64,000 bases of DNA from the human T2T-CHM13v2.0 reference genome, Homo sapiens, in the NCBI RefSeq assembly GCF_009914755.1, contig NC_060935.1; one strand, given 5' to 3'. Shown here in pieces: positions 3,756-58,785 of this stretch; within the stretch, counting starts at the first letter, position 1; every line of letters starts with the position of its first letter. The notes beneath the pieces were generated by a model. The model did no database searches. It was not told the origin of the DNA and saw nothing but the letters and a program-made list of their open reading frames with translations. The position numbers and the translations under genes were made by a program.

Positions 3756-4772
3756 ACGGGGAAAAAACAGAAGAGAAAAACTGGAAACTCTAAAAAGCAG
3801 AGTGCCTCTCCTCCTCCAAAGGAACGCAGTTCCTCACCAGCAACAGAACAAAGCTGGATGGAGAATGACTTTGACAAGCTGAGAGAAGAAGGCTTCAGAA
3901 GATCAAATTACTCTGAGCTACGGGAGGACATTCAAACCAAAGGCAAAGAAGTTGAAAACTTTGAAAAAAATTTAGAAGAATGTATAACTAGAATAACCAA
4001 TACAGAGAAGTGCTTAAGGAGCTGATGGAGCTGAAAACCAAGGCTCGAGAACTATGTGAAGAATGCAGAAGCCACAGGAGCCGACACGATCAACTGGAAG
4101 AAAGGGTATCAGCAATGGAAGATGAAATGAATGAAATGACGCGAGAAGTGAAGTTTAGAGAAAAAAGAATAAAAAGAAATGAGCAAAGCCTCCAAGAAAT
4201 ATGGGACTATGTGAAAAGACCAAATCTATGTCTGATTGGTGTACCTGAAAGTGACAGGGGAGAATGGAACCAAGTTGGAAAACACTCTGCAGTATATTAT
4301 CCAGGAGAAATTCCCCAATCTAGCAAGGCAGGCCAACATTCAGATTCAGGAAATACAGAGAACGCCACAAAGATACTCCTTGAGAAGAGCAACTCCAAGA
4401 CACATAATTGTCAGATTCACCAAAGTCGAAATGAAGGAAAAAATGTTAAGGGCAGCCAGAAAGAAAGGTCGGGTTACCCTCAAAGGGAAGACCATCAGAC
4501 TAACCGCGGATCTCTCGGCAGAAACTCTACAAGCCAGAAGACAGTGGGGGCCAATATTCAACATTCTTAAAGAAAAGAATTTTCAACCCAGAATTTCATA
4601 TCCAGGCAAACTAAGCTTCATAAGTGAAGGAGAAATAAAATACTTTACAGACAAGCAAATGCTCAGAGATTTTGTCACCACCAGGCCTGCCCTAAAAGAG
4701 CTCCTGAAGGAAGCGCTAAACATGGAAAGGAACAACTGGTACCAGCCACTGCAAAATCATGCCAAAACATAA
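3756..4772 (+). pseudogene. L1 ORF1, disrupted
   Basis: Start codon ATG>ACG at 3756; frameshifts near 4016 and 4255. Confidence 0.9.
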
Positions 4773-4835
4773 AGACCATCGAGACGAGGAAGAAACTGCA
4801 TCAACTAACGAGCAAAATAACCAGCTAACATCATA

Positions 4836-7800
4836 ATGATAGGATCAAATTCACACATAACAATATTAACTTTAAATGTAAATGGACTAAATGCTCCAAT
4901 TAAAAGACACAGACTGGCAAATTGGATAAAGACTCAAGACCCACCATTGCGCTGTATTCAGGAAACCCATCTCACGTGCAGAGACACACATAGGCTCAAA
5001 ATAAAAGGATGGAGGAAGATCTACCAACCAAATGGAAAACAAAAAAAGGCAGGGGTTGCAATCCTAGTCTCTGATAAAACAGACTTTAAACCAACAAAGA
5101 TCAAAAGAGACAAAGAAGGCCATTACATAATGGTAAAGGGATCAATTCAACAAGAAGAGCTAACTATCCTAAATATATATGCACCCAATACAGGAGAACC
5201 CAGATTCATAAAGCAAGTGCTTAGTGGCCTACAAAGAGACTTAGACTCCCACACATTAATCATGGGAGACTTTAACACCCCACTGTCAACATTAGACAGA
5301 TCAATGAGACAGAAAGTCAAAAAGGATACCCAGCAATTGAACTCAGCTCTGCACCAAGCAGACCTAATAGACATCTACAGAACTCTCCACCCCAAATCAA
5401 CAGAATATACATTGTTTTCAGCACCACACCACCCCTTTTCCAAAATTGACCACATACTTGGAAGTAAAGCACTCCTCAGCAAATGTAAAAGAACAGAGAT
5501 TACAACAAACTATCTCTCAGACCACAGTGGAATCAAACTAGAACTCAGGATTAAGAATCTCACTCAAAACCGCTCAACTACATGGAAACTGAACAACCTG
5601 CTCCTGAATGACTACTGGATACATAACGAAATGAAGGCAGAAATAAAGATGTTCTTTGAAACCAACGAGAACAAAGACACAACATACCAGAATCTCTGGG
5701 ACGCATTCAAAGCAGTGTGTAGAGGGAAATTTATAGCACTAAATGCCCACAAGAGAAAGCAGGAAAGATCCAAAATTGACACCCTAACATCACAATTAAA
5801 AGAACTAGAAAAGCAAGAGCAAACACATTCAAAAGCTAGCAGAAGGCAAGAAATAACTAAAATCAGAGAAGAACTGAAGGAAATGCAGACACAAAAAAAC
5901 CCTTCAAAAAATTAATGAATCCAGGAGCTGGTTTTTTGAAAGGATCAACAAAATTGATAGACCACTAGCAAGACTAATAAAGAAAAAAAGAGAGAAGAAT
6001 CAAATAGACGCAATAAAAAATGATAAAGGGGATATCACCACCGATCCCACAGAAATACAAACTACCATCAGAGAATACTACAAACACCTCTACACAAATA
6101 AACTAGAAAATCTAGAAGAAATGGATAAATTCCTCGACACATACACTCTCCCAAGACTAAACCAGGAAGAAGTTGAATCTCTGAATAGACCAATAACAGG
6201 ATCTGAAATTGTGGTAATAATCAATAGTTTACCAACAAAAAGGGTCCAGGACCAGATGGATTCACAGCCGAATTCTACCAGAGGTACAATGAGGAACTGG
6301 TACCATTCCTTCTGAAACTATTCCAATCAATAGAAAAAGAGGGAATCCTCCCTAACTCATTTTATGAGGCCAGCATCATCCTGATACCAAAGCCGGGCAG
6401 AGACACAACCAAAAAAGAGAATTTTAGACCAATATCCTTGATGAACATTGATGCAAAAATCCTCAATAAAATACTGGCAAGCCAAATCCAGCAGCACATC
6501 AAAAAGCTTATCCACCATGATCAAGTGGGCTTCATCCCTGGGATGCAAGGCTGGTTCAATATATGCAAATCAATAAATGTAATCCAGCATATAAACAGAG
6601 CCAAAGACAAAAACCACATGATTATCTCAATAGATGCAGAAAAGGCCTTTGACAAAATTCAACAACGCTTCATGCTAAAAACTCTCAATAAGGTATTGAT
6701 GGGACGTATCTCAAAATGAGAGCTATCTATGACAAACCCACAGCCAATATCATACTGAATGGGCAAAAACTGGAAGCATTCCCTTTGAAAACTGGCACAA
6801 GACAGGGATGCCCTCTCTCACCACTCCTATTCAACATAGTGTTGGAAGTTCTGGCCAGGGCAATTAGGCAGGAGAAGGAAATAAAGGGTATTCAATTGGG
6901 AAAAGAGGAAGTCAAATTGTCCCTGTTTGCAGACGACATGATTGTATATCTAGAAAACCCCATTGTCTCAGCCCAAAATCTCCTTAAGCTGATAAGCAAC
7001 TTCAGCAAAGTCTCAGGATACAAAATCAATGTACAAAAATCACAAGCATTCTTATACACCAACAACAGACAAACAGAGAGCCAAATCATGAGTGAACTCC
7101 CATTCACAATTGCTTCAAAGAGAATAAAATACCTAGGAATCCAACTTACAAGGGATGTGAAGGACCTCTTCAAGGAGAACTACAAACCACTGCTCAATGA
7201 AATAAAAGAGGATACAGACAAATGGAAGAACATTCCATGCTCATGGGTAGGAAGAATCAATATCATGAAAATGGCCATACTGCCCAAGGTAATTTACAGA
7301 TTCAATGCCATCCCCATCAAGCTACCAATGACTTTCTTTACAGAATTGGAAAAAACTACTTTAAAGTTCATGTGGAACCAAAAAAGAGCCCGCATCGCCA
7401 AGTCAATCCTAAGCCAAAAGAACAAAGCTGGAGGCATCACGCTACCTGACTACAAGGCTACAGTAACCAAAACAGCATGGTACTGGTACCAAAACAGAGA
7501 TATAGATCAATGGAACAGAACAGAGCCCTCAGAAATAACGCCGCATATCTACAACCATCTGATCTTTGACAAACCTGAGAAAAACAAGCAATGGGGAAAG
7601 GATTCCCTATTTAATAAATGGTGCTGGGAAAACTGACTAGCCATATGTAGAAAGCTGAAAGTGGGTCCCTTCCTTACACCTTATACAAAAATCAATTCAA
7701 GATGGATTAAAGACTTCAATGTTAGACCTAAAACCATAAAAACCCTAGAAGAAAACCTAGGCATTACCATTCAGGACATAGGCATGGGCAAGGACTTCAT

Positions 7801-8650
7801 GTCTAAAACACCAAAAGCAATGGCAACAAAAGCCAAAATTGACAAATGGGATCTAATTAAACTAAAGAGCTTCTGCACAGCAAAAGAAACTACCATCAGA
7901 GTGAACAGGCAACCTACAAAATGGGAGAAAATTTTTGCAATCTACTCATCTGACAAAGGGCTAATATCCAGAATCTACAATGAACTCCAACAAATTTACA
8001 AGAAAAAAACAAACAACCCCATCAATAAGTGGGTGAAGGACATGAACAGACACTTCTCAAAAGAAGACATTTATGCAGCCAAAAAACACATGAAAAAATG
8101 CTCATCATCACTGGCCATCAGAGAAATGTAAATCAAAACCACAATGAGATGCCATCTCACACCAGTTAGAATGGCAATCATTAAAAAGTCAGGAAACAAC
8201 AGGTGCTGGAGAGGATGTGGAGAAATAGGAACACTTTTACACTGTTGGTGGGACTGTAAACTAGTTCAACCCTTGTGGAAGTCAGTGTGGCAATTCCTCA
8301 GGGATCTAGAACTAGAAATACCATTTGACCCAGCCATCCCATTACTGGGTATATACCCAATGGACTATAAATCATGCTGCTATAAAGACACATGCACACG
8401 CATGTTTATTGCGGCATTATTCACAATAGCAAAGACTTGGAACCAACCCAAATGTCCAACAATGATAGACTGGATTAAGAAAATGTGGCACATATACACC
8501 ATGGAATACTATGCAGCCATAAAAAATGATGAGTTCACGTCCTTTGTAGGGACATGGATGAAATTGGAAGTCATCATTCTCAGTAAACTATCATAAGTAC
8601 AAAAAACCAAACACCGCATATTCTCACTCATAGGTGGGAATTGAACAATG
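4836..8650 (+). pseudogene. L1 ORF2 (endonuclease/reverse transcriptase), disrupted
   Basis: Fragments 4836-5915 (endonuclease), 6716-7636 (FADD reverse transcriptase motif), 7661-8131 and 8144-8596; several stops and frameshifts. Confidence 0.92.
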
Positions 8651-57499: not shown

Positions 57500-57922
57500 A
57501 GACCTAAAATGAACATAAGCATGTGCTTGCACTGTGGTGTTTCCATTTATTTCAAAGCAGACATTATCCTTTTCATTGTGCTTATTCCCATCATGACTAT
57601 TTTTCTATTTTTCATTGAATGGGTGCCTTATGTATTGCAAAGAGCTTAACATTTGTTCTCTTCTTCAAAATCTTCAAAACTCCATGCCCTTCCTCTTTTT
57701 TCATATGCCCTACCGTTTCCTTAAATGAGCCTTTGTATTTCCCAACACAGTTATGAGCCAGCAGGATGCTGTTTCAAAAAGGGTGGAGGGCAGGGAGTGG
57801 AACACTTCATACTTCCCTTCAGTATATTAACTGGAAAGCTCTTCCAGTCGAGTGATGTACTGAGCCACTTCAACCACTGCTCCTCTGAACCTAACGCTTC
57901 AAGAGGGAGCTCGAATCAGTTC
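57500..57922 (-). pseudogene. Decayed exon (ELIRAPS*SVRFRGAVVEVAQYITRLEELSS*YTEGKYEVFHSLP..)
   Basis: Acceptor tctctcttaatag|; phase 0 matches exon 59020-58932; donor uncertain. Confidence 0.6.
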
Positions 57923-57940
57923 CTATTAAGAGAGACACAT

Positions 57941-58785
57941 AACAAACAACCCCATCAAAAATTGGGCGACGGACACGAAGAGACACTTCTCAAAAGAAGA
58001 CATTTATGCGGCCAACAAACATATGAAAAAAAGCTCATCATCACTGGTCATTAGAGAAATGCAAATCAAAACCACAATGAGATACCATCTCACACCACTT
58101 AGAATGGCGATCATTAAAAAGTCAGGAAACAACAAATGCTGGCGAGGATGTGAAGAAATAGGAATGCTTTTACACTGTTGGTGGGAGTGTAAACTATTTC
58201 AACCATTGTGGAAGACAGTGTGGAGATTCCTCAAGGATCTAAAACCAGAAATATCACTTGACCCAGCGATCTCATTACTGGGTATATACCCAAAGGATTA
58301 TAAACCATTCTACTATAAAGACACATGCACATGTATATTTATTGTGGCACTGTTCACAATAGCAAAGATTTGGAACCAACCCAAATTCCCATCAATGATA
58401 GACTAGATAAAGAAAATGTGGCATGTGTACAACATGGAATATTAAGCTGCCATAAAAAAGGATGAGTTCATGTCCTTTGGAGTGACATGGATGAAGCTGG
58501 AAACCATCATTCTCAGCAAACTAACACAGAAACATAAAACCAAACACCGCATGTTCTCACTCATAAGTGGGAGTTCAACAACGAGAACACATAGACACAG
58601 GGAGGGGAACATCACACGCTGGGGCCTGTTGGGGGGTTGGGGGCTAGGGGAGAGATAGCATTAGGAGAAATACCTAATGTAGATGATGAGTTGATGGGTG
58701 CAGCAAACCACCATGGCATGTGTATACCTATGTAACAAATCTGCACGTTCTGCACATGTATCCCAGAACTTAAAGTATAATAAAA
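57941..58785 (+). mobile_element. 5'-truncated L1PA7/8-like 3' fragment
   Basis: ORF2 C-terminus plus 3'UTR; tail followed by (GA)n. Confidence 0.92.

What the first reader, a model, noticed from the sequence alone, without database searches (positions are those of the whole stretch)
3891..58500. Neighbouring L1s of different subfamilies share a patchwork of private mutations
The L1s at 37258 (PA3-like) and 44454 (PA4/5-like) share non-CpG changes that differ from the consensus as I recall it: aaaacacc (38585/44937), gccagacag (38825/45180), aagtcaagg (38991/45347), gcagtgagtag (40080/46435), aaggtagcagaaggtaa including a shared stop (40201/46556), cagcatagaaac, ttcacactat and ctgatgtttg. The L1s at 2851 and 44454 share gactcaagacccacca (4931/45655), aagacagtgg and gaactccaac (7982/48726). 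Those at 44454 and 57941 share tttggagtgac (49281/58476). Those at 32751 and 57941 share ccaaattccc, ggcatgtgtac and ctaaaaccag. Nearby subfamily-diagnostic sites stay distinct, so the exchanged tracts are short. This suggests unusually frequent ectopic gene conversion among co-oriented local L1s, or cross-mapping during assembly.
Basis: partly seen in the sequence, partly recalled or inferred. Interest (0 to 1): 0.75.

Follow-up and report, generated by a model that had tools for sequence, protein, structure and literature searches.

The report
Patchy gene conversion among neighbouring L1s
Two dead L1 retrotransposons of different ages lying 1.2 kb apart on human chromosome 11 share a scatter of rare mutations, including a stop codon, best explained by short copy-and-paste exchanges between them, a known process shown here in unusual detail.

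Summary
The window holds five + strand L1 copies: A 2849-8979, B 32761-35914, C 37256-43264, D 44454-49601 and E 57941-58783.

**C-D: beyond chance.** I compared the copies with 52 L1 copies fetched from elsewhere in the same genome. D carries 9 of 65 C variants that no panel copy has; 1.3 were expected (P = 1e-5). Panel copies carry 0.8% on average. C is a younger type than D. Yet at 40086-40215 it carries five D-type or old-type markers in a row, including an in-frame ORF2 stop. This reads as a D-to-C conversion tract. The other shared sites are isolated.

**A-D: suggestive.** D 45481-45493 carries four A-type states, and a 216-bp stretch is identical in both copies.

**D-E: weak.** The case rests on one double change.

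**B-E: not private.** This is ordinary shared old-subfamily ancestry (35 sites in 843 bp).

**Verdict.** This is non-allelic gene conversion among nearby L1s, a new instance of a known process. One oddity is unexplained: 11 of the 14 shared C-D variants are transversions (P = 0.003). I could not test an assembly artefact or date the events in apes.

The parts
2849..8979 (+). L1 copy A: full length, young type, flanked by an 11-bp target-site duplication
   Evidence: Self-BLAST. Flanks printed. The ORF 4821-5912 matches Exo_endo_phos. A sits in the crown of the tree.
32761..35914 (+). L1 copy B: 3' 3.1 kb, oldest type, 86-87% identical to A, C and D
   Evidence: Used as outgroup.
37256..43264 (+). 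L1 copy C: full length, young type, 9-bp target-site duplication and its own A-rich tail
   Evidence: ORF1 domains Transposase_22 and Tnp_22_trimer. Position in the tree and staircase matrix.
44454..49601 (+). L1 copy D: 5'-truncated, 5.1 kb, older type. It is the common partner of every suspected exchange.
   Evidence: RVT_1 in the ORF 47292-49262. Basal in the tree beside L010, L013 and L028.
57941..58783 (+). L1 copy E: 3' 0.84 kb, old type
40086..40215 (+). Core D-to-C tract in C, homologous to D 46441-46570. Five consecutive D-type or old-type markers: 40086, 40139, 40178, 40204 and 40215. The last one creates the in-frame ORF2 stop at 40215-40217 in C and 46570-46572 in D. The tract is bounded by young-type states in C at 39926 and 40229.
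38589..41971 (+). Isolated rare non-CpG states shared only or almost only by C and D, outside the core tract. C positions: 38589, 38831, 38995, 39177, 39563, 39624, 40959, 41519, 41946, 41971. D positions: 44941, 45186, 45351, 45532, 45919, 45980, 47317, 47877, 48308, 48333.
   Evidence: D is the only exact genome match of C 38784-38880 and of C 38971-39059 among the 40 hits scored in each search.
45481..45493 (+). Young-type, A-type patch inside old-type D, homologous to A 4757-4769. Four states in 13 bp match A. One of them was seen in no panel copy, whereas D's old-type relatives carry the old states. D returns to the old type 15 bp further on.
45657..45668 (+). Two states shared with A (A 4933 and 4944). 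The 60-bp stretch A 4887-4946 has D as its only exact genome match among the 40 hits scored.
48546..48761 (+). 216-bp stretch of D identical to A 7802-8017. It includes three unusual shared states (A 7936, 7941, 7988). D is densely mutated on both flanks.
49285..49288 (+). Double change shared by D and E (E 58480 and 58483) and absent from A, B, C and 22 panel copies

Best explanation
After their separate insertions, the co-oriented L1 copies in this 56-kb stretch exchanged short pieces of sequence by non-allelic (ectopic) gene conversion. A break or gap in one copy is repaired using a nearby homologous copy as template.

Shown:
- C and D, 1.2 kb apart, share far more rare variants than independent mutation allows.
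- C carries a run of D-type markers that breaks the subfamily order.
- D carries a patch of A-type markers.

Inferred:
- Direction is D to C for the tract at 40086-40215, which carried D's stop codon into C.
- Direction is A to D for the patch at D 45481-45493.
- The C-D exchange is old. The two copies differ at 4% within 25 bp of the shared sites, against 7.3% elsewhere.
- The A-D 216-bp stretch, with no differences at all, is recent.

Whether the C-D patchwork came from several short-tract events or from one complex event is open.
For: Independent insertions: different target-site duplications, tails and truncation points.

Excess sharing:
- D carries 9 of 65 C variants absent from all panel copies, against 1.33 expected (P = 1.1e-5). 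For transversions it is 7 against 0.29 (P = 2.8e-8).
- The 50 panel copies tested the same way carry 0.8% on average. The maximum is 5, in the poorly aligned L038; all others carry 1 or fewer.
- The C-D pair ranks 7th of 1417 pairs. The higher ranks are pairs sharing older-subfamily states.
- A-C, which are more alike overall, share 0.

The shared states are not ancestral: B has the common state at all 6 shared sites it covers.

Mosaic: the tree and the 36-site staircase matrix place C in the young crown and D at the base. Yet C has old states at two early-changing sites (40139, 40178), flanked by D-specific states at 40086, 40204 and 40215.

Local similarity: C-D mismatch density is 4.0% within 25 bp of the shared sites against 7.3% at random sites (P = 0.003).

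Genome searches: D is the only exact match of two C segments and of two A segments among the 40 hits scored each time. No locus other than C and D appears in both the and one search lists.

D 45481-45493 shows four A-type states among old-type relatives.
Against: - The longest identical C-D run is 97 bp, against about 81 expected. No single C-D tract stands out by length.
- Most shared sites are isolated, with D-only variants within tens of bp. This demands very short tracts or old events.
- The shared variants are 3 transitions to 11 transversions, against 150 to 88 among unshared ones (P = 0.003). Simple copying does not predict this.
- Single shared variants do recur elsewhere in the genome: 7 other exact copies of the 68-mer round C 41825, and near-exact hits.
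- The A-D 216-bp run is partly a 134-bp stretch where D simply equals the common sequence, and D has another such stretch of 158 bp. One of the three shared A-D states there is an old-type CpG site, and another occurs in 3 of 32 other copies.
- The panel is small. It was picked by similarity to C and holds no copy as old as D, B or E.
- Only 40 candidates are scored in each genome search.
Confidence: 0.75

Rival explanations
1. Shared descent from a rare source sub-lineage. C and D were copied from related source elements that already carried these variants, so nothing happened locally.
For: Some single variants occur in other copies: searches give near-exact hits, and one search gives 7 exact 68-mers. 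L1 source lineages do carry private variants (established knowledge).
Against: - C and D sit at opposite ends of a clean comb-shaped tree. A side lineage would have had to gain all the young diagnostic states in parallel.
- One shared state is an ORF2 stop, which a self-propagating source should not carry.
- None of 52 panel copies shares more than one or two of the states.
- No locus other than C and D recurs between the hit lists.
- Two members of a lineage this rare landing 1.2 kb apart would itself need explaining.
Confidence: 0.08
2. Chance parallel mutation at mutable sites.
For: Four further shared sites are CpG-flagged. The excesses for A-D, D-E and C-E are only P = 0.03-0.05.
Against: For C-D the excess lies in transversions at non-CpG sites, 7 against 0.29 expected. 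That is the class least prone to recurrence. The shared sites lie in locally more similar sequence and next to old-type states in C.
Confidence: 0.04
3. Assembly or polishing artefact: reads from one copy corrected the other.
For: The copies are 92-95% identical and close together. I had no reads to check.
Against: - The shared states are single bases interleaved with hundreds of retained differences, 384 mismatches between C and D. Cross-mapped correction would be expected to homogenise blocks.
- Sequence round the shared C-D sites still differs by 4%, as expected of old events.
- From general knowledge, long accurate reads span a 6-kb L1 together with its unique flanks.
Confidence: 0.04

Closest known systems
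Non-allelic gene conversion between neighbouring Alu elements
   Same: Mosaic patterns of subfamily-diagnostic sites, short tracts, and a rate that rises for copies within about 10 kb. This is described in passages of the review PMC6598467, which cites Aleshin and Zhi 2010 and Kass et al. 1995. A further review, PMC8230782, was seen only in a search listing and abstract start.
   Different: The partners here are 5-6 kb L1 copies of clearly different ages. The marks are spread over more than 3 kb, three partners meet in one copy (D), and a stop codon was carried across.
Gene conversion among human LTR elements (PMC4921805)
   Same: Ectopic exchange among dispersed retroelement sequences, giving mosaic copies. 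Seen only as a search listing and abstract start, and as cited in PMC6598467.
   Different: That work used polymorphism among Y chromosomes. Here there is a single genome, so direction and age are inferred from subfamily markers alone.
Repair of a chromosomal break in a LINE element by conversion from other endogenous LINEs in mouse cells (Tremblay, Jasin and Chartrand 2000; recalled, not read here)
   Same: Experimental demonstration that L1 copies can act as donors for one another, with short tracts.
   Different: That was induced breaks in cultured cells. This is a germline record over millions of years, with nearby donors.

Membership tests
LINE-1 (L1PA-type) retrotransposon copies | ORF1 with L1 trimerisation and RNA-binding domains | tested here: met
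   C 38459-38980 matches Transposase_22 (E = 4e-57) and Tnp_22_trimer (E = 9e-28).
LINE-1 (L1PA-type) retrotransposon copies | ORF2 with endonuclease and reverse transcriptase domains | tested here: met
   A 4821-5912 matches Exo_endo_phos. D 47292-49262 matches RVT_1.
LINE-1 (L1PA-type) retrotransposon copies | A-rich tail, target-site duplication, frequent 5' truncation | tested here: met
   A and C have tails and duplications of 11 and 9 bp. B, D and E are 5'-truncated.
LINE-1 (L1PA-type) retrotransposon copies | Assignment to named subfamilies (PA3, PA4/5 and so on) by diagnostic sites of the reference consensuses | not testable with these tools
   No reference consensus library was available. 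Only the relative order was established.
Non-allelic (interlocus) gene conversion | Paralogues share derived variants in excess of independent mutation | tested here: met
   C-D: 9 against 1.33 expected, P = 1.1e-5. A-D and D-E are only marginal.
Non-allelic (interlocus) gene conversion | Local conflict with the overall phylogeny (a mosaic of diagnostic sites) | tested here: met
   C has old states at 40139 and 40178. D has young states at columns 1915 and 1925.
Non-allelic (interlocus) gene conversion | A contiguous tract significantly longer than chance identity (GENECONV-type test) | tested here: inconclusive
   C-D longest run is 97 bp against about 81 expected. A-D is 216 bp against about 85, with an analytic P of about 1e-5. 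But properly aligned panel pairs also reach an analytic P of about 5e-4, and D has other clean stretches.
Non-allelic (interlocus) gene conversion | The pre-conversion state is seen at the orthologous locus of an outgroup species or on another haplotype | not testable with these tools
   No ape or second human assembly was available.

The most novel reading that the evidence does not exclude
The C-D patchwork is the footprint of a single old repair event. A break near C 40086-40215 was filled from D, giving the continuous core tract. Heteroduplex DNA then reached 1.5-1.9 kb to each side. Mismatch repair restored the well-recognised transition mismatches, while poorly recognised transversion mismatches escaped and were fixed.

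This would explain three things:
- the shared sites are isolated single bases;
- 11 of the 14 are transversions, and 5 of the 14 are G-C swaps against 16 of 238 among unshared variants;
- no recent long tract exists.

If the same bias holds genome-wide, old neighbouring repeats would record how the mammalian germline handles each type of mismatch during recombination.
Probability: 0.15. Interest if true: 0.65.

Novelty: new member of a known kind. Interest (0 to 1): 0.35.

Why it matters
- **Practical.** Exchange between neighbouring L1 copies blurs subfamily calls and age estimates that rest on divergence. It can also move disabling or regulatory changes from one copy to another; here a stop codon was moved.
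- **Mechanistic.** The locus is a compact worked example, with one copy exchanging sequence with up to three partners that lie 1 to 35 kb from it.
- **Open question.** The transversion-rich spectrum of the exchanged sites, if general, would give a way to read mismatch-repair bias from complete genome assemblies.

Tried and rejected
- **Exact-pattern genome search by window reference.** Rejected as a format error. I used DNA queries of 60 bp or more by reference instead. These score only 40 candidates each, so they bound the frequency of a variant but do not count it.
- **Older-type panel matched to D, B and E.** Not obtained. The D-E and B-E tests are weaker for this.
- **Run-length test for C-D.** Not significant.
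- **B as a partner.** No excess with A, C or D (P = 0.24-0.33), although B lies 1.3 kb from C.
- **A-C.** No shared rare variants.
- **Ancestral-state explanation for C-D.** Rejected, because B has the common state at 6 of 6 covered sites.
- **Tandem duplication of one element.** Rejected, because the flanks, duplications and ends differ and C is closer to A than to D.
- **Strand assignment of the G-C mismatches in the heteroduplex model.** Considered, then left aside as over-reading five sites.
- **Literature.** Searches showed no paper on this locus among the listed hits. I make no claim that none exists.
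Full report
**What is there.** The window is human chr11:39990001-40054000. A self-comparison finds five L1 copies, all on the + strand:
- A 2849-8979, full length
- B 32761-35914, 3' 3.1 kb
- C 37256-43264, full length
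- D 44454-49601, 5.1 kb
- E 57941-58783, 0.84 kb

There is also an old minus-strand fragment at 17981-18343.

Pfam confirms L1 ORF1, endonuclease and reverse-transcriptase domains. A and C have their own target-site duplications and tails, and the copies are truncated at different points. They are therefore separate insertions.

Ungapped identities are A-C 94.6%, A-D 92.9% and C-D 92.6%. B and E are 85-87% identical to everything else. All copies are broken by many stops and frameshifts.

**Checking the observation.** With only three sequences, any variable site groups two copies against one, so sharing alone means nothing. The test needs outside copies.

The window's own genome can be searched. 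I fetched 29 copies of 3.2 kb centred on C 40060-40260. These were picked for similarity to that segment, so they are biased towards C. I also fetched 29 near-full-length copies picked with the whole of C as query. After I removed 5 poorly matching or oddly structured loci, 52 remained and were aligned to the five local copies.

**C and D.**
- D carries 9 of the 65 non-CpG C variants that no panel copy has. The expectation from D's own substitution rates is 1.33 (P = 1.1e-5).
- Split by class, the counts are 2 of 33 transitions (1.0 expected) and 7 of 32 transversions (0.29 expected, P = 2.8e-8).
- Each of 50 panel copies tested the same way carries 0.8% of C's private variants on average. The maximum is 5, in the badly aligned L038; all others carry at most 1.
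- Among 1417 pairs, C-D ranks 7th. The pairs above it share older-subfamily states.
- A and C, which are more alike overall, share none.
- With up to 3 other carriers allowed, there are 14 shared sites between C 38589 and 43093, and 8 of them have no other carrier.
- One of these 8 (C 41825) lies in a gappy column, and its 68-mer has 7 other exact matches. I discount it. Another site (C 43093) is an old state also present in B and E.
- B has the common state at all 6 shared sites it covers, so the shared states are not ancestral.
- The stop-creating state at C 40215 is absent from 29 of 29 copies in the less biased panel.

**Genome searches.** D is the only exact match of C 38784-38880 (40 scored of 199 candidates) and of C 38971-39059 (40 scored of 74). 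No locus other than C and D appears in both hit lists. A few near-exact hits show that single variants do recur elsewhere, as expected among thousands of copies. The combination was found only in this pair.

**Mosaic structure.** A tree without CpG columns is comb-shaped. D lies at the base with the older panel copies, and A and C lie in the crown. Thirty-six sites separate old from young copies and form a clean staircase.

C fits its place in that staircase, with one exception. At two early-changing sites (40139, 40178) it has the old state. These two sites lie between the D-specific states at 40086, 40204 and 40215. That makes five donor-type markers in 130 bp. Young-type states at 39926 and 40229 bound the tract.

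I read this as a D-to-C conversion tract. It also explains the shared in-frame stop without needing a defective source element: C's ORF 39765-40217 ends on it, and in D it is in frame with ORF 46192-46494.

Elsewhere the shared sites stand alone, with D-only variants within tens of bp. C-D mismatch density is 4.0% within 25 bp of the shared sites, against 7.3% at random identical sites (P = 0.003). The effect fades by 100 bp. The longest identical C-D run is 97 bp, which is not remarkable. The tracts are therefore short, or the events are old, or both.

**A and D.** D carries 3 of 45 A-private variants, against 0.8 expected (P = 0.05). The count alone is weak. The sites do cluster.
- At D 45481-45493, four states in 13 bp match A. 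Two are young-type states, and one was seen in no panel copy. All old-type relatives of D carry the old states there. D returns to the old type 15 bp further on. This looks like an A-to-D patch.
- A 4887-4946 has D as its only exact genome match among 40 scored of 286 candidates. The other 38 scored hits each show one mismatch.
- A 7802-8017 and D 48546-48761 are identical over 216 bp, where about 85 bp is the expected longest run. D is the only exact match among 40 scored of 927 candidates, and it is heavily mutated on both flanks.

There are caveats on the 216-bp stretch. 134 bp of it is simply D equalling the common sequence, and D has another such stretch of 158 bp. Of the three unusual shared states, one is an old-type CpG site and one occurs in 3 of 32 other copies. 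The direction there is ambiguous. Zero differences suggest a recent event.

**D-E and B-E.** Over E's 843 bp, 35 sites group B with E against A, C and D, and 11 group B, D and E against A and C. That is the expected age order, so the B-E sharing is subfamily ancestry and not private mutation.

Sites grouping D with E alone number 4 non-CpG. One of them is polymorphic in the panel. The double change at D 49285 and 49288 is absent from 22 panel copies. E is the joint-best genome match of D 49255-49316, at 95% and tied with one other locus. No hit shows the higher identity expected if D's own subfamily carried the double change. This is suggestive only.

B shows no excess with A, C or D.

**Mechanism.** Non-allelic gene conversion among nearby, co-oriented homologous repeats fits the pair-specific sharing, the mosaic of diagnostic sites and the short scale.

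The process is established for Alu elements, where mosaic diagnostic patterns and raised rates within about 10 kb are described. It is also established for LTRs. I read the relevant passages of PMC6598467; PMC4921805 and PMC8230782 I saw only as listings and abstract starts. A 2026 preprint lists gene conversion among the processes that blur old L1 history (one passage of PMC13192797). Experimental L1-to-L1 repair in mouse cells is recalled from memory and was not read here.

D is the hub. It is donor to C, recipient from A, and perhaps a partner of E.

**Unexplained.** The 14 shared rare C-D variants are 3 transitions and 11 transversions. The unshared rare variants of the two copies are 150 and 88 (Fisher P = 0.003). 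G-C swaps make up 5 of 14 shared variants against 16 of 238 unshared (P = 0.003). The lineage substitutions at the 36 diagnostic sites are mostly transitions (my count: 26 to 10).

Copying should not select by mutation class, and parallel mutation would favour transitions. One possible reading is a single old event with long heteroduplex DNA, in which transition mismatches were restored and poorly recognised transversion mismatches escaped repair. The repair preferences in that reading are recalled from yeast and biochemical work and were not checked here. I give it about 15%.

**Limits.**
- The panel is small, partly chosen for likeness to C, and lacks old copies.
- The commonest base stands in for the ancestral state.
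- Each genome search scores only 40 candidates.
- There are no reads, other haplotypes or ape genomes.
- The first-stage reader looked at many windows. A P of 1e-5 alone would not be decisive, but the independent mosaic evidence supports it.

Noticed in passing
window 38589-43093 (C) and the homologous sites in D: The rare variants shared by C and D are 11 transversions to 3 transitions, with 5 G-C swaps. This differs from the unshared variants of the same two copies (P = 0.003 for each comparison).
   Followed up: partly
window 48542-48545 (D): Four adjacent bases differ from every other copy shown, a block change. It sits exactly at the left edge of the 216-bp stretch that D shares with A.
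   Followed up: no
window 3145-3744 and 37247-37748: The two RefSeq 'enhancer' features of the hub annotation fall on the 5' ends of the two full-length L1 copies, A and C.
   Followed up: no
G000:C11:39781772-39781839 (about 208 kb upstream of the window): One of the 7 other exact matches of the 68-mer at C 41784-41851 lies on the same chromosome arm close by. Two more are on contig C24.
   Followed up: no
window 58380-58445 (E) and 35513-35577 (B): B is the joint-best genome match (94%) of this E segment among 40 scored of 2020 candidates. That is more than I would expect of a random old copy. It was not pursued, for lack of an old-copy panel.
   Followed up: no
window 17981-18343 (minus strand); 25132-25177: An old, 65%-identical L1 fragment lies on the opposite strand. 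There is also a perfect (AC)23 microsatellite.
   Followed up: no
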